In this document: piece by piece, positions 7,673 through 29,704 of the stretch | Layout: each line of letters begins with the position of its first letter | How positions within the stretch are numbered: the first letter of the stretch is position 1 | Source of the DNA: Gammaproteobacteria bacterium | Lineage (GTDB): Bacteria > Pseudomonadota > Gammaproteobacteria > UBA9214 | Direction of reading: 5' to 3' | DNA length: 39,649 nucleotides | Assembly: GCA_029881775.1 (NCBI GenBank) | Contig: JAOULY010000001.1 | Span: 1-39,649, forward strand | The notes under the pieces: generated by a model | Told to the model about the DNA's origin: nothing | The model's database searches: none | Seen by the model: the letters and a program-made list of their open reading frames with translations, nothing else | Translations under genes and position numbers: made by a program

Positions 7673-7687
7673 GTTCTTATTAACGCT

Positions 7688-16129: not shown

Positions 16130-18172
16130 CTAGCGAAGTTTATTCAGCCAGCCCTGGTTTTCATCATGTCTGTCGAGAAGTAACAGGATGTCTGTCTGCC
16201 CCGCAGCGGCCGCGATATCGCGAACACGTTCGCGCCGGTTATTCCTGATCCGCGTATCGGCGCCGGCCTGGAGCAGCATTGCAACGGTATCTGCGTGACC
16301 GTTGGCTGCAGCCAGCATCAGCGATGTTTCGCCCAGGTTATTTGCAGCATCAATTTCAGCCCCGGCCTTTAGTAATTGGCCGACAATTCCTTGCCGCCCC
16401 TTGTTTGCGGCCAGCATCAGTGATGAGTTCCCGTCGCCGGTACGGGTGTTCACGTCGGCCTGGTGTGAGATCAATTGCTTGACGATCTTCCCGTAACCTT
16501 TTTCAGTAGCATGCATCAAGACCGTGCGACTGTTGTGGTCGCTTGTCGAGACAGTGGCGCCGCTGTCGAGCAACAATCTGGTGTTTTTGTCCAGGCCGCT
16601 GCCGACTGCATACCACAGGGCGGTATGCTTGTTGTGGTCAGCCTGGTTTACACGGGCCGTGCCGGCGAGGAGCAATTTTAGTAACTTGCTATTATTGTTT
16701 TCTGCGGCCAGCATCAAAACAGTAACGCCGGACCTGTCCTGCTGATTCTGGTTGGTCTTGCGCTGTAGCAGGAGTCTGACAATATCCAGGTTGCCATCGC
16801 GCACTGCAATGCACAAGGCGCTGCACCCCTCATTATCCTGGTGGTTGATTGCTGCAGTAACAAGCAGCAGCTTTACGATTCCAGGTTCACCGGAGCGTAC
16901 GCCCCACATCAATGTGCTCGAGCCATCATCGGTCACATCAGCTTTGGCACCGGCGTCCAGCAGGAATTTGACAAGAACACCGTGTCCCTTGTGGGCTGCG
17001 AGTGATAATGCTGTGTGGCCTTCATTGTTCCTGATGTTTATATCGGTGCCGCGCTTGATGATTTCGCGGACAATCTCCTCCTGACCCCGCCATGCAGCTT
17101 CGAGCAACGGCGGCATGCCGGATGATCCGTATGTGTCCTGTTTTTTATCGTGTAATGAAAGAAGTTTGCCGGCAGATGCGGTGGATCGTTTAACGGATGC
17201 TTTCGGTATCGCATTGTGTTTCGCCAGTAATGCGAGAATATTCCTGTGGTTCTTCCTGGCTGCAATGTCTGCTGCAGTCAGGCCATCCCTGTTCGCTATG
17301 TTGAGCCTGGCGCCGTTGGCAATCAATATATCCAGTACGCGTGCATCATCCTTGCCTGCAGCGATCATGGCTGCTGAGTCGCCATTGCGATCTACCAGGT
17401 TGACGGACGCCTTGTTTCGCAGAAGTAGCCTGACGATATCGCCATGTGCGTGCTTCGTTGCGATGTGCAGTGCGCTTTCTCCGCCGTCATTCTGCGCATC
17501 CGGCAAGTGAGAGTCCAAGAGTAGCGCTTCGATTACTTTCGCATTGCCGATTTCCGCGGCCTGCATAAGTGGCGTGTTGTGATAGTCGTCACGTGCGTCG
17601 ATATTGGCGCCTGCAGCGAGCGCCTGGCGGACTTTGTTGTGGTCAGATTTTATGATGGCATGCCGCAGCAGTTCATCGAGTGTCCCGCTTGCAGCGGGCT
17701 GTGGCTCCGATTCGGATGCCGAGACCTTCTTTTGTGCCATCCTGTGACCATTGCCTGCTGCACGTTTAAACCAGTGCAGGGCGTTTTCATAACTGATGTC
17801 GGTTCCCCAGCCATTCTCATACATGACGCCGAGGTTATACTGCGCCTGTGCATGTTCCTGTCTGGCGGCCTTTTGCAGCCAGTCAAAGGCGGCTTTGTGA
17901 TTGCGCGGTACGCCACGGCCGGAGCGGTGCAGTGCTGCAAGCTGGTACTGTGCTTCCGGGTTTCCCGATTTGGCGAGTGGCACAAGTATCGCAACTGCCT
18001 TGTCCATATCACGCATGCGCACGGCGGTGTTGAAATCGCCAAGTACCTCGTTATCTGACGCTGCCGGCAAGCCGGGCGAGATGCAGGCCAGGCCCAGCGC
18101 GGCAGTAAGAGCCAGCATGCGCAGCAGCACTGTTGCGCATAGTCGCAGCTTTCCGGATTCAGGCTGTTCCAT
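16130..18172 (-). CDS. secreted Sel1-repeat plus ankyrin-repeat protein
   Basis: 680 aa. Signal-like N-terminus LRMLALTAALGLACISPGLPAAS. It has 2-3 Sel1 repeats (GNPEAQYQLAALHRSGRGVPRN..., AQAQYNLGVMYENGWG...). About 14 ankyrin repeats follow (recurrent G.T.LM.AA..G....V..LL..GA..N). Confidence 0.85.
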   Translation of the reverse strand: MEQPESGKLRLCATVLLRMLALTAALGLACISPGLPAASDNEVLGDFNTAVRMRDMDKAVAILVPLAKSGNPEAQYQLAALHRSGRGVPRNHKAAFDWLQKAARQEHAQAQYNLGVMYENGWGTDISYENALHWFKRAAGNGHRMAQKKVSASESEPQPAASGTLDELLRHAIIKSDHNKVRQALAAGANIDARDDYHNTPLMQAAEIGNAKVIEALLLDSHLPDAQNDGGESALHIATKHAHGDIVRLLLRNKASVNLVDRNGDSAAMIAAGKDDARVLDILIANGARLNIANRDGLTAADIAARKNHRNILALLAKHNAIPKASVKRSTASAGKLLSLHDKKQDTYGSSGMPPLLEAAWRGQEEIVREIIKRGTDINIRNNEGHTALSLAAHKGHGVLVKFLLDAGAKADVTDDGSSTLMWGVRSGEPGIVKLLLVTAAINHQDNEGCSALCIAVRDGNLDIVRLLLQRKTNQNQQDRSGVTVLMLAAENNNSKLLKLLLAGTARVNQADHNKHTALWYAVGSGLDKNTRLLLDSGATVSTSDHNSRTVLMHATEKGYGKIVKQLISHQADVNTRTGDGNSSLMLAANKGRQGIVGQLLKAGAEIDAANNLGETSLMLAAANGHADTVAMLLQAGADTRIRNNRRERVRDIAAAAGQTDILLLLDRHDENQGWLNKLR

Positions 18173-19472
18173 ATTTTGTCTCTACTTCGATACCGGTATT
18201 TTTCAGGAAAGGAGTGGGTAATACGCCGCCGGCACAAATGATGACAGCGTCATTATCAAGTTCGAGAATATTGCCCTGTTGTTCGATTTTCACTGTTTTG
18301 TCGCAGATTGCTTTTACATTGGATGACATGAGGATTTTCAGGTTGCCTGTTTCGCCCAGTGACGCTATGCGTTGACGGTTCTTTTCCTTTGCGCGCGAGA
18401 ATGATTCGCTTCTGTACGAGATAGTTACCGTGGTGTCTGGTAATTCGGCAATACTTGCCGCTGCCTCAAGTGCGCTGTCGCCGCCACCCACAACCAGGAC
18501 ATGTTGGTTGCGATATTGTTCCGGATCGATAAGGCGATAGACAACTTTGTTTGACTCTTCGCCGGGAACTCCAAGTGTGCGTGGCGTTCCCCTCCGGCCT
18601 ATCGCAAGCAAGACAGATGATGTCCGGTACTCGTTGCTGGACGTTTTTACAATGAAGCCGTCTTCAATACCGTCGATAGTATCCACGCGTTCGCCGTAAT
18701 TGATTTTGATGCCGGTCTTTACAATCACGTCCTGCCAGAACTCCAGTAATTCCTCTTTTGATACTTCCCTGAAATTCATTTTTCCGACGATGGGCAGCTT
18801 GATCGGCGCCGTCATGACAAGCTTGCCGCGCGGGAAGTGGGCGACGGTACCTCCCAGTGAATCCTGATCAACGGCGACGTAGTCCAGTTTGCTTTCATGT
18901 GCAGCCAGGGTGGCGGCGATCCCCGCAGGGCCTGAGCCGATTATCACTACGTCCAGGTAACCACCCGGTGACTTTCGACCAGACCTGATGATGGACTCCA
19001 TGGCCTGGCGGCCCTGTTCTGTTGCGTTCCTGATCAGGCCCATGCCGCCGAGTTCCCCGGCTATGTAAATACCCGCTACGTTGGTTTCAAAGTCCGGTGA
19101 CACCAATGGAATATCGACGCCGCGCTCGGCAGTGCCGAACACCAGGGTGATGGCATCCATCGGGCAGGCTGTCTTGCATGCGCCATGCCCGATGCAGTGG
19201 CTGGGATTGATCAACTCCGCCTTGTCACGGATCAGTCCAAGCACGTTTTTCTCAGGGCAGGCGCTGATGCAGGAACGGCAGCCAATACACGCGGTGGCGT
19301 CAATGACGGGATGCAATGAGGCGGGTTGCATGAGGCCTGCATCACGCGCTTGTTTGAGTTCCCTGTAGGCATGACGTTGCGTGCGCTGACGTTTAGCCAG
19401 GTATGTGCCCCATATGATTAAAAACAGCGCTATGTATATAAAAGTATATTTATCAAACATATACAAAATCAT
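18159..19472 (-). CDS. membrane-anchored 2x[4Fe-4S] ferredoxin-domain / FAD-NAD(P) pyridine-nucleotide-disulfide-family oxidoreductase
   Basis: 437 aa. N-terminal TM helix FIYIALFLIIWGTYLA. Two ferredoxin motifs, CIGCRSCISACP and CIGHGACKTACP. Two Rossmann motifs, VIIGSGPAG and VVGGGDSALE, in a thioredoxin-reductase-like arrangement. It overlaps the downstream ankyrin gene by 14 nt. Confidence 0.8.
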   Translation of the reverse strand: MILYMFDKYTFIYIALFLIIWGTYLAKRQRTQRHAYRELKQARDAGLMQPASLHPVIDATACIGCRSCISACPEKNVLGLIRDKAELINPSHCIGHGACKTACPMDAITLVFGTAERGVDIPLVSPDFETNVAGIYIAGELGGMGLIRNATEQGRQAMESIIRSGRKSPGGYLDVVIIGSGPAGIAATLAAHESKLDYVAVDQDSLGGTVAHFPRGKLVMTAPIKLPIVGKMNFREVSKEELLEFWQDVIVKTGIKINYGERVDTIDGIEDGFIVKTSSNEYRTSSVLLAIGRRGTPRTLGVPGEESNKVVYRLIDPEQYRNQHVLVVGGGDSALEAAASIAELPDTTVTISYRSESFSRAKEKNRQRIASLGETGNLKILMSSNVKAICDKTVKIEQQGNILELDNDAVIICAGGVLPTPFLKNTGIEVETKYGTA

Positions 19473-19860
19473 TACCAGTTCATGACAGTGATTAACGGGC
19501 GCAATTACCTGTATTTAGTGCCGGTGTGAGTTTAGTTGCTTTCGGTAAAATATGGGAATATATTCCCAATAATTAGAAATGGGTCACAGTTGCCTCCCTG
19601 TTGATCTGGTCTCCTTATGTCGCATCACCGGGTCAGGCGTTGTGGACTGGCGGTTGCAGCAATGCATACGGCCGGCGGTGATTCATCTTTAAACAAAGAC
19701 TATGGGCGAATCCTGATGGAAAGAAATGTGACTGGTTTGGCAGTTGTTAAAGAATGCTGCTGCATTGGCAAAGATCGTAGCTATTTCACAGACATAGTGC
19801 GATATGCGTGACAGTGTCAGTACCACTGAATCAGCAGATGAAATTTATGCAGGCATCGGT

Positions 19861-20556
19861 ATGAAGACAACGGCAGTTTTGGCTTTGATTATCCCTTTGG
19901 CGACGGTTGGTTTTTACTTGCTGATGGATGACAGGCAGTTGAATGACAGTGACCTGCACTCAGGCAGCGCTGACATGCCGCCGGCATCCTCGCCATCGCC
20001 GGTTAATGCGGTAAAGCCACTGCCAAGAGTCGAAGATATGCTGGGTAAGCTTGAGGCCAGGCTAGAGTCAGACCCGGATGATGCGAGTGGCTGGAACCTG
20101 CTTGGCAAATCCTATGAATATCTTGGCCGACCAGATGCAGCTGAAAAGGCCTTCAATCGGGCCAGGGCGCTTGGTTATTCAGATGACGCAACAAGCGTCA
20201 ATACAGGCAGGCGTATAAAAGTAATCGCCAGCATTGAACCTTCGCTGGTAGATGCCGTATCGATGACCGACACCGTTTTCGTATTTGCACGGGCCGTGAA
20301 TGGACCGCGCATACCATTAGCCACGCTAAGGAAGCAGGCCTCTGAGCTGCCTTTTGAGTTTGAGCTGGATGATTCAATGGCGGTGTCGCCGTTCGCGAAG
20401 CTATCAGATTACGAGAAAATTATTATCGGTGTGCGTGTATCGCGTAGCGGAGAAACATTCGCCAGGGAAGGTGACCTGGAAGGTTTTAGTGGGCTTGTCT
20501 CGCCAGGTGCTGCAGATGTAGTGCCTGTCATTGTCAGTCAGGCTGTCATCAGGTAG
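19861..20556 (+). CDS. CcmI/CycH-like apocytochrome c chaperone (single TM, TPR and C-terminal domain)
   Basis: Start moved to ATG 19861 (MKTTAVLALIIPLATVGFYLLM anchor). LEARLESDPDDASGWNLLGKSYEYLGRPDAAEKAF and the C-terminal TVFVFARAVNGPRIPLATLRKQASELPFEFELDDSMAV..VRVSRSG match the conserved C-terminal module of CcmI. Confidence 0.65.
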   Translation: MKTTAVLALIIPLATVGFYLLMDDRQLNDSDLHSGSADMPPASSPSPVNAVKPLPRVEDMLGKLEARLESDPDDASGWNLLGKSYEYLGRPDAAEKAFNRARALGYSDDATSVNTGRRIKVIASIEPSLVDAVSMTDTVFVFARAVNGPRIPLATLRKQASELPFEFELDDSMAVSPFAKLSDYEKIIIGVRVSRSGETFAREGDLEGFSGLVSPGAADVVPVIVSQAVIR

Positions 20557-20566
20557 TTCCATAATT

Positions 20567-21499
20567 ATGAATGCCGTTACCAGGGAAATGAATGCAGCAT
20601 CGGATGGTGATTTTGGAAATGCCGATAATGCGCAAAGGTTAAAGCGTTTGCGTGCCCTGATTGCAGGCGGGCCACGCACCCTGATGATGTATATGACTGT
20701 GATCGCCATTCTTTACGCGGGATGGAGCAGACGGGGTGATGTTTACCTCTCCCCCGAAGAAGGCCTTGGCTATGCGCTGGGTATTACTGGCGGCCTTATG
20801 ATGTTGTCATTGTTGTTGTATCCGTTACGCAAGCATAAAAAATGGGCGCGCATCCTCGGTGGTGTGCGCAACTGGTTCAGGATGCATATGGTTCTGGGTG
20901 TAATCGGGCCTGTCTGCATTCTCTACCACTGTAATTTCCAGCTGGGTTCAATGAACGGAAATGTAGCTCTCTTCAGTATGCTGCTGGTGGCATCGAGTGG
21001 CTTGATAGGTCGCTATTTTTACGGGCGTGTTCATTACGGCCTGCACGGATCTAAAGCCGATCTGGAGAATCTGGGTAGCGACGCAGCTGCACTCAGGGGC
21101 TGTATGAAATATATCTTCGAAGAATCACCGTCTATGCAGAAGAGGCTTGACGGGCTGGATGCTAAAACGCGAAATCTCCCGGATGGCTTTGTTGCCAGTT
21201 TCATACATGTCATTTACATATCAATGCTTACAAGGTGGGCCCGGTTGGCAACAGCCAGGGATTTGCGCCTTGCTATCAATGCTATACATGCGAAAAACAG
21301 GATGGACAGACAGACGCTGGGTTCTCTTGATGAGGTCAGTCGGTTCTACCTGAAAACTTACCTCGAAGCGATCAAGCGCGTAGCCGGCTTCAGCTTTTAT
21401 GAGCGGCTATTTTCACTTTGGCATTTATTGCATATGCCATTGTTCATGATGCTGCTGGTTACAGGCACCATTCATGTGCTTGCCGTGCATATGTATTGA
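20567..21499 (+). CDS. polytopic inner-membrane protein with conserved-looking intramembrane histidines (candidate b-type haem / quinone-interacting subunit)
   Basis: Start moved to ATG 20567, 10 nt after the upstream stop. Five predicted TM helices. His residues sit in helices 3 and 5 (WFRMHMVLGVIGPVCILYH; LWHLLHMPLFMMLLVTGTIHVLAVH). A soluble helical insert of about 120 aa lies between TM4 and TM5. I did not recognise a family. Confidence 0.55.
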   Translation: MNAVTREMNAASDGDFGNADNAQRLKRLRALIAGGPRTLMMYMTVIAILYAGWSRRGDVYLSPEEGLGYALGITGGLMMLSLLLYPLRKHKKWARILGGVRNWFRMHMVLGVIGPVCILYHCNFQLGSMNGNVALFSMLLVASSGLIGRYFYGRVHYGLHGSKADLENLGSDAAALRGCMKYIFEESPSMQKRLDGLDAKTRNLPDGFVASFIHVIYISMLTRWARLATARDLRLAINAIHAKNRMDRQTLGSLDEVSRFYLKTYLEAIKRVAGFSFYERLFSLWHLLHMPLFMMLLVTGTIHVLAVHMY

Positions 21500-21507
21500 T
21501 TCAGTGA

Positions 21508-23085
21508 ATGATTGCCGTAAGCATGAAACCGGTTTGTCCGTGCGTCCTTGTATTTTTTGTCACGATGTTGGCATTAACGGCAAATGTGCAGGCGCGCAGC
21601 CTTGAATCGCTGATCATGCCAGGCAAGCTGATCGAAGGGCATGCCAAGTATGAGGATGAATGTAATCAGTGCCACCGTCCGTTCAGCAAGGAAAGCCAGA
21701 ATGTTCTGTGTCTCGATTGCCATGAACAGGTTGCAGAAGATGTTGACGGCAAGAAAGGGTTTCATGGGCTCAGTCGTCTTGGCGAGTATGAATGTAGTAC
21801 ATGTCATGAAGATCACAAGGGACGGGATGCGCAGGTGATGCAATTCAGTACCGATACATTTGACCATGATTTGACTGATTACCCGTTAAAGGGGATGCAT
21901 GGTGTTGTGGTTTGTAATGCCTGTCACAAGAGCGGGGACAAGTACAGGGAAGCACCGGGCGAATGTTTTGACTGTCATGAGGCTGATGACATGCACAAGG
22001 GTAATCTCGGCAAGAAGTGTTCGGATTGCCACAGCGTCAAGGGCTGGCGGGAAGAACAGAAGTTTGAGCACGATGAAACAGACTTCAAGCTGCTTGGAAA
22101 GCATGAGGATGTCGAGTGCGACAGTTGTCATGCCAGCCAGCGTTATGAAAACACACCCATGGAATGCAGTACCTGTCACCGGTTCAATGATGTGCATGCA
22201 GGTAATTACGGCACGGACTGCGGCAACTGTCATCGTGAGGAAGGCTGGAAAAAAATCCGCTTCAATCACGACAAGACGGATTTTCCATTGACCGGGAACC
22301 ATCGCGATGTGAAATGCGATACATGTCACGGTGGTGACGTGCTGGCGGATAACCTGGGGACAGACTGCGTGTCATGTCACAAGGGTGACGACGAACACAA
22401 GGGTCAGTATGGAAAGAAGTGCGAATCCTGTCATAAGACCAGTGGCTGGGACAAGGTAAAGTTTGATCATGACAAAGAGACTGATTTCCCGCTGCGCGGC
22501 AAGCATATCGATCAGCAATGTAGCGCATGCCATCGGGGAGAACTTGGTAATGAGTCGCTGGCTAGAAAATGCATCGACTGTCACAAGGCCAATGATGTTC
22601 ATGCAGGCGAGCAGGGCGAGACATGTGATCAATGCCACGGCGAGAAAGGCTGGGCGACGAAAGTGCGTTTTGAGCATGATATGACGAGTTTTCCCCTGAT
22701 CGGCATGCATGGCGTCGCACCCTGCGAGGAATGTCATTTGTCCGCAGTGTTTTCGGATGCGCGGGCTGAATGTGATGCCTGCCATGCAGGTGATGATGTG
22801 CATGAGAAGAAGCTCGGGCCGGCTTGCGAGGCGTGTCATAACCCGAATGCATGGACATTGTGGGAATTTGATCACAATAACCGGACAGATTTCACGCTGG
22901 ACGGGAGTCACGTCGGTATCGATTGTCACGCTTGCCACAAGCAGCCCGTGAAGAAAAAGATCAAGCAGAGCGGTGCATGTGGTAGCTGCCACAGGGATGA
23001 CGATGTGCATGACGGCGGGTTCGGACGATTCTGTACGCGCTGTCATAACACGAAATCATTCGGTGCCATCGAGATAAACAGGTAG
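21508..23085 (+). CDS. periplasmic 21-haem c-type cytochrome (seven c7/c3-type trihaem modules)
   Basis: 525 aa with a signal peptide (alternative start ATG 21523). I counted 21 CxxCH motifs, spaced as 7 repeats of about 70 aa. Each repeat has the pattern F.HD.TDF.L.G.H....C..CH ... C..CH..DD.H.G..G..C..CH....W. Confidence 0.9.
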   Translation: MIAVSMKPVCPCVLVFFVTMLALTANVQARSLESLIMPGKLIEGHAKYEDECNQCHRPFSKESQNVLCLDCHEQVAEDVDGKKGFHGLSRLGEYECSTCHEDHKGRDAQVMQFSTDTFDHDLTDYPLKGMHGVVVCNACHKSGDKYREAPGECFDCHEADDMHKGNLGKKCSDCHSVKGWREEQKFEHDETDFKLLGKHEDVECDSCHASQRYENTPMECSTCHRFNDVHAGNYGTDCGNCHREEGWKKIRFNHDKTDFPLTGNHRDVKCDTCHGGDVLADNLGTDCVSCHKGDDEHKGQYGKKCESCHKTSGWDKVKFDHDKETDFPLRGKHIDQQCSACHRGELGNESLARKCIDCHKANDVHAGEQGETCDQCHGEKGWATKVRFEHDMTSFPLIGMHGVAPCEECHLSAVFSDARAECDACHAGDDVHEKKLGPACEACHNPNAWTLWEFDHNNRTDFTLDGSHVGIDCHACHKQPVKKKIKQSGACGSCHRDDDVHDGGFGRFCTRCHNTKSFGAIEINR

Positions 23086-23094
23086 GCGAAAAGC

Positions 23095-26000
23095 ATGGAT
23101 GCGCATATGCAGTGCGCTGCGAGAATCGTTATGAAAAATAGCAGGATAAACAAACGTGCACTGACAGTTTTCAGTACGGGCATCACCGCGCAGGTCATGG
23201 CGGCCTTGCTGGTCATCATGTCAGCTGTCCTGGTGAGCGTATCTGGCGAGGTTAACGCGGCGCAGCCCGCAGCAGAATCCGGGTATGTTATTCGGCTGGC
23301 ATCCTCATCGGCGCGTGATTTCTCTGCCGCCGATGTTCATGGCGCCGGGATCCATGCGGAACAGGCATTTTATTCAACCCGATTCAACAGGAGCGGTAAG
23401 CAGTGGCGCCAGTTACGCCTGGGTTTCTTCAGGACGCGGGCAGAGGCTGAATCGGTATTGAAAAAGCTGGCGAAGCACTATCCCGGCGCCCAGGTAGCCC
23501 GGGCGACATCTGCCGATATTCGCTATGCGTCCAGTGAGCCCGTGGGCGCCCCGGCAGTTGTGACTCGCCAGCCTGTGAACAAGGCCGCCAAAGCCGGGAC
23601 GTCTGCAGAAAGTATGATAACAACCACGCAGGAGCCTTCAATAACTGGCGGGTTGAGCCGGCTGTCGCCGACCAGCTGGTTTAAGCGAAACAGGGAAAAG
23701 GATGTGCCCGAAGCCGGGCAAGCCGTGCGGCCGGCAAATCAGCTTGTCAGTACGGCAGAGACGAATAGCGCGCCTGTGAAGACTGTTGATGAAGCGCCTC
23801 GCTTGTCACATAAAGTCGCTGGGCCTGTAATCCAGGAAAGTGGTGGTGCAGTTACCTTGCCTGCAGGTGCCGTGGGGAATGACGACAAGCCCCTGTTATC
23901 CATGTTTGGGAAGCTGTCACCTGCGAAATGGTTTTCCGGAAACGACCGGGCCGGCCCGGATTCCGGTAGTAAAGCCTTGCAGATTGCCGCTGTTGACTCG
24001 ACGGCTGTTGCTGCAACGGTAAAACAGCCAGCTGGAGGTTTTGACCACCTTTCTACCGGTTTCGCGCTGGACGGCGCGCATGCGGATGCGGATTGTTCCA
24101 GCTGCCATTTGCAGGGTGTCTTCGAAGGCACGCCCTCGGAGTGCAGCAACTGTCATGGCGTAGGTAGCCGGATGTCGGGTGAAACCATGTCATCGGACCA
24201 TATCAAGACCATGCCGCTATGCGAGGAATGCCATACAGCGCAACTGTGGTCGCCGTTGAGCAGGATGAATCATGATGTGGTGACCGGTAGTTGCGGTAGT
24301 TGCCATGACGGGCGGAAAGCCACCGGCAAGTCGCCGGGGCATATTCAGAGTGCTGACACCTGTGATGACTGCCACAATACCGCGACCTGGCGCGCCTCGG
24401 CATTTGATCACAGTGGTGTAGCGACGGGTAGCTGTTTCAGTTGTCATAATGGCAGTACCGCTACCGGCAAGGTTGCAAACCATGTTGCCAGCAGCAATAC
24501 CTGTGATGATTGCCACACTGTCAATGGCTGGATACCGGCGTTATTTGACCACAGTGGCGTGTCAGGTAATTGCGCGTCCTGCCACAACGGTACCACGGCT
24601 ACCGGGAGGAGTGCTGCGCATATCAGTACGACCAGCAGCTGTGAGTCGTGCCATGTTACGAGTTTATGGACGCCGGTACAGCGGCCGGATCACACGCAGG
24701 TACTGGGTACCTGCTTCAGCTGCCACAACGGCAGCACGGCATCCGGCAAGTCGGGCAGCCACATTACCAGCGGTAATACCTGCGACGATTGTCATAGCAC
24801 GGTGTCATGGACGAATGCGACGTTTGATCACAGTGGCGTAAGCGGGAATTGCGCGTCCTGCCACAACGGTACCACGGCAACCGGCAAGAACGGCACGCAC
24901 ATCCAGACCACGAACACCTGCGAGGACTGTCACAATTCGACGGTGTGGCGTCCGGTTAGCCGTGTCGATCATGCCGCAGTACTGGGTACCTGCTTCAGCT
25001 GCCACAACGGCAGCACGGCATCCGGCAAGTCGGGCAGCCACATTACCAGCGGTAATACCTGCGACGATTGTCATAGCACGGTGTCATGGACGAATGCGAC
25101 GTTTGATCACAGTGGCGTAAGCGGGAATTGCGCGTCCTGCCACAACGGTACCACGGCAACCGGCAAGAACGGCACGCACATCCAGACCACGAACACCTGC
25201 GAGGACTGTCATGGCACCAGCCTATGGCGCCCGGTCATTCGCGTCGACCATGTTGCGGTGATCGGTACCTGTTTCAGTTGCCATAACGGGTCCACGGCCA
25301 GTGGCAAGACGCCGAACCATATAAGCAGTGGCAACACCTGCGATGATTGTCACAGTACCAGCGGCTGGATCCCGGCCGTGTTCGATCACAGTACGGTGAG
25401 TGGCAGTTGTTTTTCCTGCCACAATGGTACGACGGCGACCGGCAAGAACGGCACGCATATCCAGACAACGAATCTGTGCGAGGATTGCCACAATTCGACG
25501 CTGTGGCGTCCGGTTACCCGTGTCGATCATGCCGATGTAATTGGTACCTGTTTCAGTTGCCATAACGGAACGACGGCCAGTGGAAAAACACCGAATCACG
25601 TTGCCAGTGGTAATACCTGTGATGATTGTCATAGCACCAATGGCTGGATACCGGCGGTTTTCGATCACAGCGCCGTCTCGCCAGGGACTTGCAGTACCTG
25701 TCACAACGGCAGTACGGCGACAGGCAAGCCGGGAAATCATGTGCAGACCACTGGACAGTGCGACAACTGTCACTCGACCATCGCCTGGTTACCGGCAACG
25801 TTCGATCACAACAATGTGTCGCCCGGCACCTGTTCTGGTTGTCATAACGGCAATACGGCAACCGGTAAGCCGGGCGGGCATTTCGTTACAACATTGCAAT
25901 GTGATGATTGCCATTCGGTAAATAACTGGCTATCGGTCGTCTATCAGCATGTGTCCGGCGCCTACCCGGGTGATCACAGCGGGAATCCGGTCTGTACCCA

Positions 26001-26190
26001 GTGTCATACGGCTAACAGCCAGGTCATGAACTGGCCTGCGCCAGCCTACCAGCCTGACTGTGCCGGTTGTCACGCCAGTGACTACAAGGCGGGTGTGGAC
26101 AAACACCAGAGTCTCAGCCTGGATCGTAATTGTGCCGGTTCCTGTCACCAGGCCAGTCCGGAGCACAGCGTGAACAGCAGGGAATGGTAA
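23095..26190 (+). CDS. 29-haem c-type cytochrome with N-terminal membrane anchor/signal, SPOR-like domain and low-complexity linker
   Basis: 1031 aa (alternative start ATG 23131). Hydrophobic segment ITAQVMAALLVIMSAVLVSVSG. SPOR-like domain at aa 63-142. Ala/Pro/Ser/Gly-rich linker at aa 143-333. From aa 334 to the end there are 29 CxxCH motifs plus one CAGSCH, in tandem dihaem units of the doubled-CXXCH type. Confidence 0.9.
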   Translation: MDAHMQCAARIVMKNSRINKRALTVFSTGITAQVMAALLVIMSAVLVSVSGEVNAAQPAAESGYVIRLASSSARDFSAADVHGAGIHAEQAFYSTRFNRSGKQWRQLRLGFFRTRAEAESVLKKLAKHYPGAQVARATSADIRYASSEPVGAPAVVTRQPVNKAAKAGTSAESMITTTQEPSITGGLSRLSPTSWFKRNREKDVPEAGQAVRPANQLVSTAETNSAPVKTVDEAPRLSHKVAGPVIQESGGAVTLPAGAVGNDDKPLLSMFGKLSPAKWFSGNDRAGPDSGSKALQIAAVDSTAVAATVKQPAGGFDHLSTGFALDGAHADADCSSCHLQGVFEGTPSECSNCHGVGSRMSGETMSSDHIKTMPLCEECHTAQLWSPLSRMNHDVVTGSCGSCHDGRKATGKSPGHIQSADTCDDCHNTATWRASAFDHSGVATGSCFSCHNGSTATGKVANHVASSNTCDDCHTVNGWIPALFDHSGVSGNCASCHNGTTATGRSAAHISTTSSCESCHVTSLWTPVQRPDHTQVLGTCFSCHNGSTASGKSGSHITSGNTCDDCHSTVSWTNATFDHSGVSGNCASCHNGTTATGKNGTHIQTTNTCEDCHNSTVWRPVSRVDHAAVLGTCFSCHNGSTASGKSGSHITSGNTCDDCHSTVSWTNATFDHSGVSGNCASCHNGTTATGKNGTHIQTTNTCEDCHGTSLWRPVIRVDHVAVIGTCFSCHNGSTASGKTPNHISSGNTCDDCHSTSGWIPAVFDHSTVSGSCFSCHNGTTATGKNGTHIQTTNLCEDCHNSTLWRPVTRVDHADVIGTCFSCHNGTTASGKTPNHVASGNTCDDCHSTNGWIPAVFDHSAVSPGTCSTCHNGSTATGKPGNHVQTTGQCDNCHSTIAWLPATFDHNNVSPGTCSGCHNGNTATGKPGGHFVTTLQCDDCHSVNNWLSVVYQHVSGAYPGDHSGNPVCTQCHTANSQVMNWPAPAYQPDCAGCHASDYKAGVDKHQSLSLDRNCAGSCHQASPEHSVNSREW
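23281..23520 (+). other. SPOR-like (peptidoglycan-binding) domain of the 29-haem cytochrome
   Basis: GYVIRLASSS...YSTRFNRSGKQWRQLRLGFFRTRAEAESVLKKLAKHYPGAQVA follows the SPOR pattern: an unconserved beta strand, then yRvrvGpF.s..eA..v...l....p.a.v. Confidence 0.6.
24700..25211. repeat. perfect 233-bp direct repeat (two copies, 279-bp period) inside the 29-haem gene
   Basis: 24700-24932 is base-for-base identical to 24979-25211; I checked this by reading both copies. Each copy encodes VLGTCFSCHNGSTASGKSGSHITSGNTCDDCHSTVSWTNATFDHSGVSGNCASCHNGTTATGKNGTHIQTTNTCEDCH. Confidence 0.95.
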
Positions 26191-26316: not shown

Positions 26317-28788
26317 ATGAATACACACAATCGTATTGGCAACAGCCTGGTGGCAATCTTGTTTATGCTGGCGATGTCAGCCGTTGCATCGGTTGCACAT
26401 GCGCAGATAGATGTGCTGGATGCCATTGATGTCAGCCATGCTGACGACTACTCGACTATCAGTATAAATCTGAATGTCCCCGTGCATTACAAGTCGCATG
26501 TCCCGCAGAAATCCGGTGATGTGCTGCGTATTCGCGTCGATCCGGTGCTGACCCTGGGAACTGAAAACGACATCCTGTTCGGTAATGAATTTCTCCAGTG
26601 GAGTCCGGACAAACAGGTGCCCTTGTCAGAGGTTACCTACCAGAGTTCCGGGCCATCGACAGCGACGATTATTTTGCAATTCGAGGAAAGCGTTGAATTC
26701 GAGGTGCCTAAAAGCCCGAACTCAAGGCGTCTTGTCGTCAGGGTGAAACACCCGGAAGCACATACGCGGGAGAAACGGCTGCAGTCGCTGTCCTATGCGA
26801 TCAACCTGGCATCCTCGACGACGCCGTTCACTGACGAAGAGATACCACAGGTCGATGCCATGCTCTCCTATCGCCTGTATACGACAGAATTCATGAAGAA
26901 CGGCAAGCAGTGGACGCGCCTGCGACTCGGTTTCTTTGATAATCAGCAGGAGGCGAGGAGTGTGCTTAATTCGCTGAAGGCGAATTACCCGAGGGCCTGG
27001 GTCGTGTCGGTTCCGGCGGAAGAGGTGAGTAGCTCGGCGAATTCGATTTACAGCGACCGGCGGCGCCGTGAGAAAACCATGCCGGATCAGGCGCAGCAGG
27101 CGCCTGTGCCACCCGCGTTCGATATACCGGCAGACAGGCCGGCCGGCGCTGCAGACATGGAAAAAGTCGCGGCCCTGATGAAAGAGGCCGGCCAGTTAAT
27201 GACCGACAGGTTATACGACCGGGCAATTCAGTTGTATACCAAGGTGCTCGAGTATCCCGAGAGTGAGTCTAGTCCTGCTGCCCTGGAATTTCTCGGCCTG
27301 GCGCGCGAGCGCAAGGGACAGCTGGCCCAGGCGAAATCTGTTTATGGCCAGTACCTGGAGCAGTACCCGGAAGGTGAAGATGCAGAACGGGTCCGCCAGC
27401 GGCTTGCCGGCCTGGTGACTGCAAGCAAGACACCGAAAGACCGTCTGAAATCCGCGAAATCGCGCAGCAGGACAGGTGCAGACTGGGATGTATTCGGAGG
27501 TTTTTCCCAGTTCTTCCGGCGCGATGAAAATACCACCGAGGTCAACAACGCGAACCAGACGACCCTGGTGACACAGAAGTCACTGTCGTCTGATCTTGAT
27601 ATTACCGGCCGCCTGAGAACGGCGGACTATGACATGCGGACCCGCCTGACCGGCGGTTACCTGCATGACTTTCTAAACAACGGTGATGATAGCGAATCGA
27701 CTGTCAGTTCCCTGTATTTCGATGCCAGGGACAGCAGGCGCAACCTGGGTTTGCGGTTGGGGCGGCAATCACGCAGTACCGGTGGCGTGCTCGGCCGTTT
27801 CGATGGGCTGCTGGTAGATCTGCCGGTAACACAGTCCATCGGTTTTTCGGTTGTTGGCGGTTTTCCGGTCAACTCGTCGCGGGACGGTTTCAATAACGAG
27901 AAATACTTTTACGGTGCCGGCCTGGAGTTCGAGGACTTTGCCAGAGGGTGGGATGCGAATGCGTTTCTGATTGAGCAGCAGGTGGAAAGTATTATTGACC
28001 GGCGTGCAGTGGGTGGTGAGCTTCGCTATTTCGACTCGAGCAGGTCGCTGTTTGTGCTTGCCGATTACGATATTTTCTACAATGCCCTGAACACGGCTCA
28101 AATACTCGGTAACTGGACGACAGACGACAAGACCACCTTCAATATTGTGCTCGATTACAGGAACAGCCCGATCCTGACAACCAGCAATGCCCTTCAGGGC
28201 GAGCCGGTTCTGACCACGATTGAGCAGCTGCTGACAAGCTTCACCGAAGACCAGGTCTATGGATTTGCTGAAGACCGGACGGCGAGCAGTAAACTGGCCA
28301 CGTTTGGCGTAACACGGCCGGTGAGTGAAAAATTGCAGCTCAGTGGCGATCTGACATGGTCAAAATTATCTGACACGGTAGCTTCAGGTAATGTGACTAT
28401 CCCAAATCCGGGTACAGACAACGAGTGGTTCTACAATCTCCAGCTGATAGGCAGTAATCTGCTGAAAGAAGGCGATATAACCATCCTTGGCCTGCGCTTT
28501 ATCGATGCAACTGTCTCCAATACAACATCCCTGTCGATTAATTCCCGTTACCCGGTTACTAAAGACTTTCGCGTCAATCCAAGGTTCCAGGTCGATTACA
28601 GACAAAATCAAACGGACGGCAGCGAGCAAATGATTTATCGACCGACAGCGCGGTTGACCTACAGTATCCAGCGGCGTTTCCGGCTGGAGGCCGAGCTGGG
28701 TGGTGAATGGTCGGACCGGGAGATTGTTACCGGCACGACCCAGTCAGAGAGCTACTTCGTCAACCTTGGTTACCGGGCGGATTTCTAG
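26317..28788 (+). CDS. outer-membrane protein: AMIN-like, SPOR-like and TPR segments followed by a C-terminal beta-barrel
   Basis: Start moved to ATG 26317 (MNTHNRIGNSLVAILFMLAMSAVASVAHA signal). Mature aa about 1-120 is AMIN-like (IDVSHADDYSTISINLNVPVHY...RRLVVRV). Next come a SPOR-like domain and TPR helices (YDRAIQLYTKVLEYPES...AKSVYGQYLEQYPEGEDAERV). The last roughly 440 aa has an amphipathic beta-strand pattern and ends ...YFVNLGYRADF, a typical OMP C-terminal Phe signature. Confidence 0.75.
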   Translation: MNTHNRIGNSLVAILFMLAMSAVASVAHAQIDVLDAIDVSHADDYSTISINLNVPVHYKSHVPQKSGDVLRIRVDPVLTLGTENDILFGNEFLQWSPDKQVPLSEVTYQSSGPSTATIILQFEESVEFEVPKSPNSRRLVVRVKHPEAHTREKRLQSLSYAINLASSTTPFTDEEIPQVDAMLSYRLYTTEFMKNGKQWTRLRLGFFDNQQEARSVLNSLKANYPRAWVVSVPAEEVSSSANSIYSDRRRREKTMPDQAQQAPVPPAFDIPADRPAGAADMEKVAALMKEAGQLMTDRLYDRAIQLYTKVLEYPESESSPAALEFLGLARERKGQLAQAKSVYGQYLEQYPEGEDAERVRQRLAGLVTASKTPKDRLKSAKSRSRTGADWDVFGGFSQFFRRDENTTEVNNANQTTLVTQKSLSSDLDITGRLRTADYDMRTRLTGGYLHDFLNNGDDSESTVSSLYFDARDSRRNLGLRLGRQSRSTGGVLGRFDGLLVDLPVTQSIGFSVVGGFPVNSSRDGFNNEKYFYGAGLEFEDFARGWDANAFLIEQQVESIIDRRAVGGELRYFDSSRSLFVLADYDIFYNALNTAQILGNWTTDDKTTFNIVLDYRNSPILTTSNALQGEPVLTTIEQLLTSFTEDQVYGFAEDRTASSKLATFGVTRPVSEKLQLSGDLTWSKLSDTVASGNVTIPNPGTDNEWFYNLQLIGSNLLKEGDITILGLRFIDATVSNTTSLSINSRYPVTKDFRVNPRFQVDYRQNQTDGSEQMIYRPTARLTYSIQRRFRLEAELGGEWSDREIVTGTTQSESYFVNLGYRADF
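26791..27024 (+). other. SPOR-like domain of the outer-membrane protein, paralogous to 23281-23520
   Basis: SYAINLASST...YTTEFMKNGKQWTRLRLGFFDNQQEARSVLNSLKANYPRAWVV aligns without gaps over GKQW..LRLGFF....EA.SVL..L...YP.A.V with the cytochrome's domain. Confidence 0.6.
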
Positions 28789-28892: not shown

Positions 28893-29702
28893 ATGCCTGA
28901 AAAAATCACTAAATCCTTGAATACAGCAGTCCTGCGGATAATGCGTCCGCTGGTGCGCATTATGTTGCGCAACGGAATCGCCTACGGCACGTTCGCCGGC
29001 CTGGTCAGACAGGTCTACGTGGACGTTGCTTTTGCGGAGTTTACAACCGAGGGGCGCAAGCAAACTGTATCGAGGGTGTCCGCACTGACCGGCCTCACCC
29101 GTAAAGAGGTGAAACGGTTGCTCGAGCTGGACTCAACACCCGAATCGGAAGGACAGGCCCGCTTCAGCCGGGGGGTGCGTGTTGTCAGTGGCTGGATGAA
29201 TGACAGTCAATTTCACGACAGCAAGGGCAAGCCGGCAAATTTGCCTGTTGAAGGCAAGCACAAGTCGTTTACCGCGCTGGTCAGGAAATACAGCGGCGAC
29301 ATCACCATGCGTGCAATGCTGACCATGCTGGAAGAGGGAGGCACGGTCCGGGTGAAGAATGACGCTGTTCACCTCGTCCGTCACGCGTATATACCCGGCG
29401 GGGATGATGTTGAAAAAATCGCGATACTCGGCAGTGATGTCAGTGAATTGATTGCAACGATTGACCATAACATCGTTGCTGACCCGGAAGAGTTGTGGTT
29501 TCAGCGCAAGGTATCCTACGACAACGTGGCGCCGGAACATCTCGACAAGCTCAGGAAAATCTCGGCCAGGAAGGCGCAGGCATTGCTGGAATCGCTGGAC
29601 AGGCAATATTCGGATCATGAGCTTGACGTGGAAAAAAGGCAGGGGCGTCTGGTCAGTTTCGGTATTTACTACCATGAGCACGATACGCCGGGAGAGCAGT
29701 AG
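28893..29702 (+). CDS. cytoplasmic hypothetical protein with a helix-turn-helix-like segment
   Basis: 269 aa with no signal peptide. The candidate HTH is QTVSRVSALTGLTRKEVKRLLE. An AT-rich 104-nt upstream spacer has TTGAAT-N18/19-TATATA(AT). Its stop is 2 nt before the next start. Confidence 0.55.
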   Translation: MPEKITKSLNTAVLRIMRPLVRIMLRNGIAYGTFAGLVRQVYVDVAFAEFTTEGRKQTVSRVSALTGLTRKEVKRLLELDSTPESEGQARFSRGVRVVSGWMNDSQFHDSKGKPANLPVEGKHKSFTALVRKYSGDITMRAMLTMLEEGGTVRVKNDAVHLVRHAYIPGGDDVEKIAILGSDVSELIATIDHNIVADPEELWFQRKVSYDNVAPEHLDKLRKISARKAQALLESLDRQYSDHELDVEKRQGRLVSFGIYYHEHDTPGEQ

Positions 29703-29704
29703 CG

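What the first reader, a model, noticed from the sequence alone, without database searches (positions are those of the whole stretch)
24094..26190. 29-haem array built from alternating A/B dihaem units forming 93-aa tetrahaem super-repeats, about one haem per 24 residues
From aa 334 onward I count 29 CxxCH motifs. They are regularly arranged. Unit A is CxSCHNG(S/T)TA(S/T)GK..(S/N)H(I/V).(S/T)(G/S)NTCDDCH(S/T)...W(I/T)(P/N)A.FDHS.VSG. Unit B is CxSCHNGTTATGKNGTHIQTTN.CEDCH....WRPV.RVDH..V(L/I)GT. Each dihaem unit contains four His (two in CxxCH motifs plus two others), enough for bis-His ligation of every haem. Such haem density and modularity recall the doubled-CXXCH repeat cytochromes and polymeric wire-like cytochromes of Geobacter. 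Here the array is attached to an N-terminal anchor and a linker of about 190 aa. It could therefore act as a tethered molecular wire long enough to cross the periplasm.
Basis: partly seen in the sequence, partly recalled or inferred. Interest (0 to 1): 0.65.

Follow-up and report, generated by a model that had tools for sequence, protein, structure and literature searches.

The report
Peptidoglycan-tethered 30-haem PCC3 cytochrome wire
The gene encodes the large multihaem cytochrome of a known but untested "PCC3" porin-cytochrome gene cluster, and its only unusual feature is an N-terminal SPOR (peptidoglycan-binding) domain that should hold one end of the haem wire inside the periplasm.

Summary
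ORF 23095..26190 (+), 1031 aa, carries 29 CxxCH motifs plus one C-terminal CX3CH. The motifs are 23-24 residues apart, in dihaem units with four invariant His, and these form 93-aa (279-nt) tetrahaem super-repeats.

It is not a new kind of protein. The cluster matches every sequence-level hallmark of the "PCC3" porin-cytochrome cluster of He et al. 2017:
- a ~310-aa inner-membrane protein with two WX3HX13H motifs;
- a 21-haem cytochrome;
- this large cytochrome;
- a beta-barrel outer-membrane protein.

Its parts are homologous to a Leptothrix PCC3 locus. Across 80 related loci the large cytochrome has 19-89 haems at about 23 aa per haem, mostly with the same 93-aa period. The neighbouring cytochrome almost always has 21 haems.

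This fusion occurs in a minority of lineages and seems to have arisen at least three times. The porin carries a SPOR domain in nearly all loci. I found no mention of either in the searchable literature.

The SPOR domain argues that the N-terminus is periplasmic, against the published "extracellular" label, which rests on software prediction only. No function has been shown.

The parts
23095..26190 (+). Whole gene: large multihaem cytochrome of the PCC3 cluster, 1031 aa. The start codon is ambiguous (M1 at 23095, M5 at 23107, M13 at 23131).
   Evidence: ORF list, motif count, upstream sequence. P0001 was called from M5.
23131..23259 (+). Signal peptide, or less likely a signal anchor: a basic n-region (KNSRINKR), a hydrophobic core and VNA|AQ.
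   Evidence: Hydropathy segment aa 22-56. AF2 helix 20-45. Relatives also have small residues at -3/-1 after the hydrophobic stretch. Cleavage is inferred, not tested.
23278..23502 (+). SPOR domain (aa 62-136), the putative peptidoglycan-binding tether.
   Evidence: Pfam PF05036 at 23.2 bits, cut-off 21. AF2 beta-alpha-beta-beta-alpha-beta topology with pLDDT 62-89. Profile hit to the DamX SPOR 2lfv, E 1.1e-4. Foldseek lists RlpA SPOR 6i05 (TM 0.60, not significant) and DamX. phmmer E 1.3e-11 to the SPOR of the window's own porin.
23503..24036 (+). Disordered linker of about 180 aa. It holds two copies of a G(K/R)LSPxxWF motif at nt 23650-23685 and 23902-23937.
   Evidence: AF2 pLDDT about 25 with no secondary structure at aa 146-314. 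Both motif copies are conserved in L003/P0010 and L084.
24037..24285 (+). Conserved head of the array (FDHxxTGFxLxGxH... and haems 1-3). It resembles one module of the 21-haem neighbour.
   Evidence: H318, C350-H354, H369, C376-H380 and H393 are invariant in 47 homologues. The head motif is found in most large cytochromes. Module comparison.
24286..25932 (+). Twelve dihaem units of 46-47 aa (haems 4-27). Consensus: GxCxSCHNGxTAxGKxxxHxxxxxxCxDCHxxxxWxxxxxDHxxV.
   Evidence: Unit listing. Alignment A4 of 11 of the units (the duplicate of the aa 540 A unit was left out) has invariant C/H/G/W columns.
24433..25548 (+). Four tandem 279-nt (93-aa) tetrahaem super-repeats, alternating A and B units. 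A fifth, degenerate copy follows at 25549-25827.
   Evidence: TRF period 279, the repeat finder D1, pairwise identities. The 93-aa period is family-wide.
25933..26187 (+). Conserved C-terminal cap: haems 28-29 plus a CX3CH site (nt 26131-26148). It ends in an aromatic residue (..SREW).
   Evidence: CX3-4CH is conserved in relatives. Consensus.
21508..23085 (+). Partner gene: 21-haem cytochrome of 525 aa, made of seven trihaem modules of about 67 aa. This is the "periplasmic MHC" of PCC3.
   Evidence: It has 21 haems in nearly all related loci.
20567..21499 (+). Partner gene: PCC3 inner-membrane protein with two WX3HX13H motifs and SGxxG (putative dihaem b-type cytochrome).
   Evidence: Motifs at aa 115, 297 and 156 of the 322-aa ORF. 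Start as called in L001. Homologue in 41 loci.
26317..28788 (+). Partner gene: outer-membrane protein of 823 aa. Domains: signal peptide; beta-sandwich; SPOR (nt 26794-27009); TPR (27148-27459); beta-barrel of about 22 strands (27487-28785), ending ..RADF.
   Evidence: Pfam SPOR and TPR. AF2 mean pLDDT 82. Foldseek hits to OM barrels at E about 1e-10. More than 350 homologues.
19804..20556 (+). Upstream gene: membrane-anchored CcmH/CycH-like TPR plus Ig protein, probably an apocytochrome chaperone.
   Evidence: Pfam PF23892 and PF23914. Present upstream of the inner-membrane protein in 13 other loci.
16130..19472 (-). Two syntenic genes, probably part of the system. One is a membrane-anchored 2x[4Fe-4S] plus FAD/NAD(P) oxidoreductase (18159-19472). 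The other is a secreted Sel1/ankyrin-repeat protein (16130-18172).
   Evidence: Pfam, sequences. Adjacent to the inner-membrane protein in 36 and 29 related loci, and co-directional in L037, L053 and L076.

Best explanation
The gene encodes the large, variable-length multihaem c-type cytochrome of a PCC3-type porin-cytochrome conduit.

Shown from the sequence:
- After Sec export and haem attachment, the mature protein would carry 30 haems (29 CxxCH plus 1 CX3CH), each with a conserved second His.
- The haems sit in 46/47-aa dihaem units, about 23.8 residues per haem.
- The gene sits between a 21-haem cytochrome gene and a SPOR-TPR-beta-barrel outer-membrane protein gene, downstream of a putative dihaem-b inner-membrane protein gene.

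Inferred:
- The haems form one continuous bis-His chain. At the pitch of MtrA (about 10 haems per 8-10 nm) it would be roughly 24-30 nm long and would relay electrons between the periplasmic 21-haem rod and the cell exterior.
- The N-terminal SPOR domain binds peptidoglycan glycan strands. Through the ~180-aa flexible linker it keeps the N-terminal head of the wire in the periplasm, beside the porin, which carries its own SPOR domain.
- The wire then passes through the ~22-strand barrel in the manner of MtrA in MtrB, and its variable-length distal part projects outside.
- The direction of electron flow (uptake from reduced minerals or Fe(II), or export) is not determined.

My probabilities for the separate steps:
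- PCC3 large cytochrome: about 0.9.
- N-terminus periplasmic and bound to peptidoglycan: about 0.6.
- Threaded through the barrel with the distal end outside: about 0.4.
For: Haem motifs, spacing and ligand His.

PCC3 hallmarks in the window:
- Inner-membrane protein with 2x WX3HX13H plus SGxxG, against the definition in He et al. 2017.
- 21-haem cytochrome.
- Beta-barrel outer-membrane protein.

Conserved order and homology:
- The order inner-membrane protein, 21-haem cytochrome, large cytochrome, porin holds in about 45 related loci from many taxa.
- The Leptothrix sp. BB-4 locus has homologues of all parts: target E 1.6e-84, porin E 6e-65, inner-membrane protein E 5e-50. The literature names PCC3 in Leptothrix.

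SPOR domain.
- The same SP-SPOR-linker-array architecture recurs in L003, L084 and L085 (Gammaproteobacteria) and in L037 (three SPOR copies), L053 and L076 (Thermodesulfobacteriota and Deltaproteobacteria MAGs).
- Each cytochrome's SPOR is closer to porin SPORs than to the cytochrome SPORs of the other lineages, which suggests repeated independent fusion.

Threading analogy:
- The large cytochrome gene always lies immediately upstream of the porin gene, often abutting or overlapping it, as mtrA does with mtrB. That comparison rests on established knowledge.
- aa 329-545 align to the DmsE/MtrA decahaem profile over positions 32-249, at 117 bits for the whole protein.

Length argument: the neighbour has a near-constant 21 haems and the target family has 19-89.
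Against: - No experiment exists for any PCC3 protein. It was still called "functionally unverified" in 2025.
- The AF2 model of the array is low-confidence (pLDDT about 45), so a linear rod shape is not shown here.
- No solved structure matches by sequence.
- The SPOR match is near Pfam's threshold, and the glutamine of DamX/FtsN that I recall as important for binding is R/N here. Binding to peptidoglycan is therefore unproven.
- Most family members lack the SPOR domain, so it is not essential to the system.
- The published localisation of this subunit is "extracellular", though only from CELLO/PSORTb.
- The barrel resembles generic 18-24-strand OM barrels, and MtrB is not among the top 50 Foldseek matches.
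- No RNA data were found, so expression is not shown.
- MtrA-family membership fails its cut-off (117 bits against 192).
Confidence: 0.72

Rival explanations
1. The cytochrome is wholly periplasmic and acts as an electron store or distributor. It stays tethered to the peptidoglycan layer by SPOR and works as a capacitor or lateral relay. The 21-haem protein is the one that engages the porin.
For: The SPOR domain places at least the N-terminus in the periplasm. Hoover et al. raise a capacitor role for high haem numbers. Variable length (19-89 haems) also fits storage capacity.
Against: The large cytochrome gene, not the 21-haem gene, always abuts the porin gene. A 21-haem rod of fixed length fits the gap between inner membrane and porin better than insertion in a barrel. 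An 89-haem rod would be hard to house in a periplasm.
Confidence: 0.2
2. The cytochrome is wholly extracellular, as in the published PCC3 cartoon, playing the part of MtrC. The mature protein is exported across the outer membrane, and the SPOR-like domain binds something other than peptidoglycan, such as an exopolysaccharide or the porin.
For: CELLO/PSORTb predictions in He et al. 2017. Most family members have no SPOR. The SPOR subfamily here is divergent, with a W.RLRLGFF signature.
Against: The same SPOR subtype sits in the periplasmic part of the porin, upstream of its TPR and barrel. There is no lipobox and no secretion-system gene in the cluster. Software localisation of repetitive cytochromes is weak evidence.
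Confidence: 0.12
3. The repeat number is an assembly artefact and the true gene has 25 haems, or some other number. The 93-aa units are then mis-counted in this window.
For: Two 99%-identical contigs have one unit fewer. Short-read unitigs break up between 24597 and 25182.
Against: A junction unique to the 29-haem form (24903-25155) is present without mismatch in three independent runs. Either count leaves the interpretation unchanged.
Confidence: 0.15

Closest known systems
PCC3 porin-cytochrome cluster, "extracellular MHC" subunit (He et al. 2017, Front Microbiol 8:1584; Hoover et al. 2023)
   Same: Same gene neighbourhood: inner-membrane protein with 2x WX3HX13H, 21-haem cytochrome, large repeat-rich cytochrome and beta-barrel. 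Same low residue-to-haem ratio and S/T/G/A-rich composition. The parts are homologous to the Leptothrix cluster.
   Different: This lineage adds an N-terminal SPOR domain and a ~180-aa linker. None of the PCC3 papers I read mentions this, and it conflicts with a purely extracellular location.
MtrA/MtoA/PioA (DmsE-family decahaem cytochromes inserted in the MtrB/MtoB/PioB porin)
   Same: A dense run of bis-His c-haems, encoded immediately upstream of its porin. aa 329-545 align to profile positions 32-249 of TIGR03508.
   Different: It has 30 haems rather than 10. The score of 117 bits is below the family cut-off of 192. No PDB sequence hit, MtrA included. The barrel is about 22 strands and carries SPOR and TPR domains, whereas MtrB has 26 strands (from established knowledge). 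MtrB is not among the top 50 Foldseek matches.
Geobacter c7-type polymer cytochromes (GSU1996 type, TIGR04257 "nanowire_3heme")
   Same: One polypeptide built from tandem small haem modules and read as a nanowire. Pfam Cytochrome_C7 matches 10 stretches.
   Different: The module here is a dihaem unit, or a 93-aa tetrahaem, not a trihaem. TIGR04257 scores 27 bits against a cut-off of 40. The upstream 21-haem neighbour, with seven trihaem modules, is the closer analogue.
Cytochrome filaments OmcS / OmcE / OmcZ
   Same: A long, continuous haem chain for long-range electron transfer.
   Different: Those are polymers of small 4-8-haem subunits. Here the chain is a single polypeptide, and there is no sequence similarity to any PDB chain.
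SPOR-domain proteins FtsN, DamX, RlpA
   Same: The N-terminal domain has the beta-alpha-beta-beta-alpha-beta fold and matches the DamX SPOR profile. RlpA SPOR gives the best TM-score among the weak fold hits.
   Different: Those are cell-division or lytic-transglycosylase proteins. I found no report of a SPOR domain fused to a multihaem cytochrome.

Membership tests
PCC3 porin-cytochrome cluster (He et al. 2017) | Inner-membrane protein of about 300 aa with two WX3HX13H motifs and SGXXG | tested here: met
   WX3HX13H at aa 115 and 297 and SGLIG at aa 156 of ORF 20531..21499. Definition.
PCC3 porin-cytochrome cluster (He et al. 2017) | "Periplasmic" multihaem cytochrome with about 21 haem sites | tested here: met
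   ORF 21508..23085 has 21 CxxCH. The count is 21 in most related loci.
PCC3 porin-cytochrome cluster (He et al. 2017) | Large repeat-rich multihaem cytochrome with a very low residue-to-haem ratio | tested here: met
   29+1 sites at 23.8 aa per haem. The family range is 19-89 haems at about 23 aa spacing.
PCC3 porin-cytochrome cluster (He et al. 2017) | Adjacent outer-membrane beta-barrel (porin) | tested here: met
   AF2 gives a barrel of about 22 strands with pLDDT above 90. Foldseek prob 1.0 to OM barrels. The C-terminus ends ..RADF.
PCC3 porin-cytochrome cluster (He et al. 2017) | Homology to a cluster in a genus where PCC3 was named | tested here: met
   Leptothrix sp. BB-4 locus L086: target homologue P0088 (E 1.6e-84), porin E 6e-65 and inner-membrane protein E 5e-50. 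PCC3 is described in Leptothrix.
PCC3 porin-cytochrome cluster (He et al. 2017) | Extracellular location of the large cytochrome, and electron transfer across the envelope | not testable with these tools
   The published location rests on CELLO/PSORTb only. The SPOR domain argues for a periplasmic N-terminus. Function is unverified in the literature.
DmsE/MtrA decahaem family (TIGR03508) | Score above the curated cut-off, and ten haems | tested here: not met
   117.1 bits against a cut-off of 192.2. 29-30 haems.
c7-type trihaem-domain "nanowire" cytochromes (TIGR04257) | Trihaem c7 domain above the cut-off | tested here: not met
   27.0 bits against 40. The repeat unit is a dihaem.
Doubled CXXCH (Paired_CXXCH_1: PF09699 / TIGR01905) | Match to the doubled-CXXCH model above threshold | tested here: inconclusive
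   Pfam gives 38 bits against a cut-off of 20.6, but for one stretch only. NCBIfam TIGR01905 gives 17.2 against 25.2.
SPOR domain (PF05036) | Sequence match above the gathering score | tested here: met
   23.2 bits against 21 at aa 62-134. A profile of this subfamily hits the DamX SPOR 2lfv at E 1.1e-4.
SPOR domain (PF05036) | Beta-alpha-beta-beta-alpha-beta (RNP-like) fold | tested here: met
   AF2 elements E64-70, H78-84, E92-99, E102-112, H115-125, E133-136 with pLDDT 62-89. RlpA SPOR TM 0.60 (the E-value is not significant).
SPOR domain (PF05036) | Binding to denuded peptidoglycan glycan strands | not testable with these tools
   Needs a sacculus pull-down. S and W are conserved, but the Gln position is R/N. 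The identity of the key residues is recalled from memory.
Cytochrome filaments (OmcS/OmcE/OmcZ) | Sequence similarity to filament subunits, and polymerisation | tested here: not met
   No PDB chain matched the protein or its unit profile. Polymerisation itself was not testable.

The most novel reading that the evidence does not exclude
PCC3 is not an MtrCAB look-alike with a free extracellular cytochrome. It is a peptidoglycan-anchored machine spanning the whole envelope.
- The porin (in nearly all loci) and the large cytochrome (in several lineages, by independent fusions) both carry the same SPOR subtype. This would fix the conduit to the sacculus, perhaps at sites of denuded glycan.
- The large cytochrome is threaded through the barrel with its N-terminus inside.
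- On the cytoplasmic side, the dihaem-b membrane protein pairs with a syntenic membrane-anchored 2x[4Fe-4S]-flavoprotein, like a split NOX/FRE. That would wire NAD(P)H or ferredoxin, not only quinol, to the outside.
Probability: 0.3. Interest if true: 0.7.

Novelty: new variant of a known kind. Interest (0 to 1): 0.45.

Why it matters
PCC3 clusters are widespread. The taxa include lucinid and tubeworm-type symbiont relatives, Woeseiaceae, Sedimenticola, Leptothrix, Thermodesulfobacteriota, Nitrospirota and Omnitrophota. These clusters are suspected to drive iron or mineral oxidation or other extracellular electron transfer, yet nothing about them has been tested.

The SPOR-tethered variant gives a concrete handle on the unsettled topology. 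A peptidoglycan-binding domain on the "extracellular" subunit predicts a periplasmic N-terminus, and that can be checked with simple accessibility and sacculus-binding assays.

The constant 21-haem partner against the variable 19-89-haem subunit suggests which protein measures the periplasm and which one reaches outward. The extra syntenic FeS-flavoprotein and ankyrin genes would enlarge the system's parts list.

As a bare observation, a 29-haem repeat cytochrome is ordinary for this family.

Tried and rejected
1. AF2 of the full protein with a 47-sequence alignment gave a mean pLDDT of 46.7. Only the SPOR domain was confident, and the array scored about 45-55. The Foldseek search on that model therefore says nothing about the array, and no match reached E <= 0.001.
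2. Sequence searches against the PDB found nothing useful, either with the whole protein or with a profile of the dihaem unit.
3. NCBIfam has no model that this protein passes.
4. I tried to settle the repeat copy number with public runs. Only k-mer unitigs were available. They break up in 24597-25182, so they support the 29-haem junction but cannot exclude a co-existing 25-haem form.
5. No RNA runs hold the sequence, so there is no expression evidence.
6. The promoter and terminator scans over the cluster gave no more promoter-like sites than the shuffled controls and only slightly more terminator-like sites (18 against a mean of 11.8, sd 3.6), so I used neither.
7. A database search with the SPOR-linker-head segment returned only 8 proteins. 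Two led to frameshifted long-read contigs with the same architecture. It did not list the identical P0001, so its sensitivity is doubtful and I did not use it to estimate frequency.
8. I considered and rejected these readings:
- a Geobacter c7 polymer (threshold not met; the unit is a dihaem);
- a filament-forming cytochrome (no similarity; single polypeptide);
- the minus-strand ORFs overlapping the array, such as 25222..25773, as real genes (they are by-products of the repeat composition).

Full report
**Observation.**
- The finding lies in one ORF, window 23095..26190 (+), 1031 aa.
- A motif count gives 29 CxxCH. The first is at aa 334 (nt 24094, the finding's start) and the last at aa 989. 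The spacing settles to 23/24 residues from the third haem onward.
A CX3-4CH is conserved at that position in relatives.
- Shuffling the protein's own residues yields a mean of 0.24 motifs, with a maximum of 3 in 2000 shuffles.
- The array (aa 318-1031) has 23.8 residues per haem and is rich in S, T, G, A and N.
- The haem-by-haem listing confirms the alternating A and B dihaem units for haems 6-23.
- Tandem Repeats Finder reports a 279-nt period, 3.1-3.5 copies, 81-82% matches.
- An alignment of 11 dihaem units has invariant C, H, G and W columns, including two non-motif His per unit. Across 47 homologues the non-motif His are invariant or at least 90% conserved. With 61 His for 30 haems, bis-His ligation throughout is possible. 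It is not shown.

**History of the repeats.**
- The units at aa 540 and 633 are 92% identical in DNA.
- The other pairs are 65-76% identical, and 40-50% of the codons for identical residues differ. So there are old repeats held by selection plus one recent duplication.
- Two metagenome contigs 99% identical to the window (L001, L002) lack exactly one 279-nt unit and encode a 25-haem protein, P0001.
- Unitigs from three independent sediment runs contain, without mismatch, the junction 24903-25155. That junction exists only in the 29-haem form.
- The short-read data break up inside the repeats, so they cannot tell whether the shorter form is a real allele or a collapse.

**What the locus is.** The neighbours are as follows.
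- 19804..20556: a CcmH/CycH-like TPR plus Ig protein.
- 20567..21499: a membrane protein with no family hit that carries WX3HX13H twice (aa 115 and 297) and SGxxG.
- 21508..23085: a 525-aa cytochrome with 21 CxxCH.
- The target.
- 26317..28788: an 823-aa protein with SPOR and TPR domains. Its C-terminal 430 residues fold, at pLDDT above 90, into a barrel of about 22 strands. The barrel matches outer-membrane barrels (OccK, BenF, AlgE, FimD) at E about 1e-10.

This matches the sequence-level definition of the "PCC3" cluster of He et al. 2017 (PMC5566968):
- a porin;
- an "extracellular" cytochrome with a median of 34 haems;
- a "periplasmic" cytochrome with a median of 21 haems;
- a ~300-aa inner-membrane protein with two WX3HX13H motifs and SGXXG.

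That paper already reported low residue-to-haem ratios, S/T/A/G-rich repeat sequences and a "molecular wire" reading.

Homology supports the assignment.
- The target's homologue P0088 (E 1.6e-84) sits in the same position in Leptothrix sp. BB-4.
- It lies between a 24-haem cytochrome and a porin that is homologous to the window's porin (E 6e-65). Downstream of it... the inner-membrane protein gene lies upstream, homologous at E 5e-50 and with both WX3HX13H motifs.
- PCC3 was defined in Leptothrix among others.

**The family.**
I kept 80.
- Wherever enough upstream DNA is present, the order is [CycH-like], inner-membrane protein, 21-haem cytochrome, large cytochrome, porin.
- The taxa include Sedimenticola, Ca. 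Thiodiazotropha (67 haems), Woeseiaceae (about 39), Thiohalobacterales, Thermodesulfobacteriota, Nitrospirota and an Omnitrophota MAG (89 haems).
- The best porin identity to the window is 63%, and the sequence is found in sediment metagenomes. The host is therefore an uncultured gammaproteobacterium.
- The large cytochromes have 19-89 CxxCH, a median spacing of 23, and mostly an odd CxxCH count plus a terminal CX3-4CH.
- In 21 of the 34 large cytochromes with at least 25 CxxCH, the strongest self-similarity is at a shift of 93 residues. The 93-aa tetrahaem super-repeat and the haem density are therefore family traits, not peculiarities of this gene.
- The upstream partner is almost always 21 haems. 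It is built from seven trihaem modules of about 67 aa with a c7-like pattern.

**What is unusual here.**
- Before the array come a hydrophobic N-terminus, a SPOR domain and a disordered linker.
- SPOR evidence:
  - Pfam gives 23.2 bits against a cut-off of 21 at aa 62-134.
  - AF2 gives a beta-alpha-beta-beta-alpha-beta unit with pLDDT 62-89.
  - A profile of this subfamily hits the DamX SPOR structure at E 1.1e-4.
  - Among weak fold matches, RlpA SPOR has the best target TM-score, 0.60.
  - phmmer links the domain to the SPOR of the window's own porin at E 1.3e-11.
- The linker (aa 146-314) has pLDDT of about 25. It holds two G(K/R)LSPxxWF motifs that are conserved in two related species.
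- The N-terminal hydrophobic stretch is followed by VNA|AQ, and relatives likewise have small residues at -3/-1. I read it as a cleavable signal peptide, but no predictor was available.

**Distribution of the SPOR domain.**
- The porin carries a SPOR domain in nearly every locus, including Leptothrix.
- The large cytochrome carries one only in the window's clade (L001-L003, L084, L085), in L037 (three copies) and in L053/L076.
- Each cytochrome's SPOR is closer to porin SPORs (40-55% identity) than to the cytochrome SPORs of the other lineages (29-37%). This suggests at least three independent fusions, though the domain is short and the inference is soft.
- He et al. 2017 never mention SPOR or peptidoglycan, and their "extracellular" label comes from CELLO/PSORTb.
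- Full-text searches for SPOR together with multihaem cytochrome or porin terms found nothing relevant. Only the open-access library could be searched.

**Mechanism.**
- Shown: the motif set, the ligand His, the domain order and the conserved gene neighbourhood.
- Inferred from established knowledge of MtrCAB and related conduits: the haems form one chain that relays electrons across the envelope. At an MtrA-like pitch (about 10 haems per 8-10 nm; He et al. quote about 100 Å for MtrA), 30 haems would span roughly 24-30 nm.
- Three arguments shape the topology I favour:
  - SPOR domains bind peptidoglycan glycan strands (established for FtsN, DamX and RlpA), so the N-terminus should be periplasmic.
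  - The large cytochrome gene always abuts the porin gene, as mtrA abuts mtrB, and aa 329-545 align to the MtrA/DmsE profile, although below its cut-off.
  - The 21-haem partner has a fixed length, as expected for a spacer between inner membrane and porin. The large cytochrome varies almost five-fold, as expected for a part with a free outer end.
- Hence my preferred path runs in five steps:
  1. the inner-membrane dihaem-b protein;
  2. the 21-haem rod;
  3. the head of the large cytochrome, held near the sacculus by SPOR;
  4. the barrel;
  5. the variable distal array outside the cell.
- The direction of electron flow is open.
- Rivals are a wholly periplasmic capacitor and the published wholly extracellular model. 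Both remain possible.

**Comparison with known families.**
- The protein is a member of the PCC3 large-cytochrome family.
- It fails the curated thresholds of the MtrA/DmsE family (117 bits against 192) and of the Geobacter trihaem "nanowire" domain (27 against 40).
- It matches the doubled-CXXCH model only marginally.
- It resembles no solved structure by sequence.
- It works like those wires by inference, but it does not belong to them.

**Verdict.** The kind of protein is already described, although no PCC3 protein has been tested experimentally. The SPOR-linker tether is a new variant that bears on the unresolved topology of PCC3.

Noticed in passing
window 16130-19472 (-): Two genes lie next to the PCC3 inner-membrane protein gene in most related loci. 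One is a membrane-anchored 2x[4Fe-4S] plus FAD/NAD(P) oxidoreductase (437 aa), found in 36 loci. The other is a secreted Sel1/ankyrin-repeat protein (680 aa), found in 29 loci. They are co-directional with the operon in L037, L053 and L076. They may belong to the system, for example as a split NOX/FRE-like module with the dihaem-b protein. The main text of He et al. 2017, where searched for PCC3, does not list them among the PCC3 components.
   Followed up: partly
window 26794-27009 (porin SPOR); L004-L083, L086: The PCC3 outer-membrane protein is more than a barrel. It has a signal peptide, a beta-sandwich domain, a SPOR domain, a linker, three TPR pairs resembling CpoB/YbgF, and a barrel of about 22 strands with a helical insert. 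The SPOR domain is present in nearly all loci, including Leptothrix.
   Followed up: yes
window 21508-23085: The 21-haem partner is made of seven trihaem c7-like modules of about 67 aa (spacing 16-18, 18, 33). It keeps 21 haems across phyla, which suggests a length-constrained periplasmic ruler.
   Followed up: partly
window 24712-25269 vs L001/L002: Contigs 99% identical to the window differ by exactly one 279-nt tetrahaem unit (29 against 25 haems). This is either copy-number polymorphism or an assembly collapse.
   Followed up: partly
window 23650-23685 and 23902-23937: A short motif, G(K/R)LSPxxWF, occurs twice in the disordered linker. Both copies are conserved in L003 and L084. It could be a docking peptide, for example for the porin's TPR domain. 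I have no explanation that I could test.
   Followed up: no
window 19804-20556: A CcmH/CycH (CcmI-like) TPR plus Ig protein is encoded just upstream of the cluster, here and in 13 other loci. It may be a dedicated apocytochrome chaperone for the giant cytochromes.
   Followed up: partly
L072 2969-9415; L036, L052, L055, L068, L080: Some relatives are giants: an 89-CxxCH cytochrome of 2148 aa in an Omnitrophota MAG, with 77% self-identity at a 93-aa shift, and 67-haem versions in Ca. Thiodiazotropha (lucinid symbionts).
   Followed up: partly
window 28893-31171: A DUF6502 plus DUF5666 gene pair follows the porin gene. It is conserved only in the closest relatives (L004-L007, L084, L085), so it is probably not a core part of the system.
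   Followed up: partly
window 3785-9649: A sucrose-metabolism block: a sucrose-phosphate synthase/phosphatase fusion, a second phosphatase, a PfkB kinase and an amylosucrase-like glycosidase. Phosphoribulokinase lies at 35303-36175. Together these suggest an osmoadapted autotroph.
   Followed up: no
window 24217-25921 (-) and other frames: Several ORFs of 90-180 aa overlap the array on the opposite strand or in other frames. They look like by-products of the repetitive, GC-rich coding sequence and have no support as genes.
   Followed up: no
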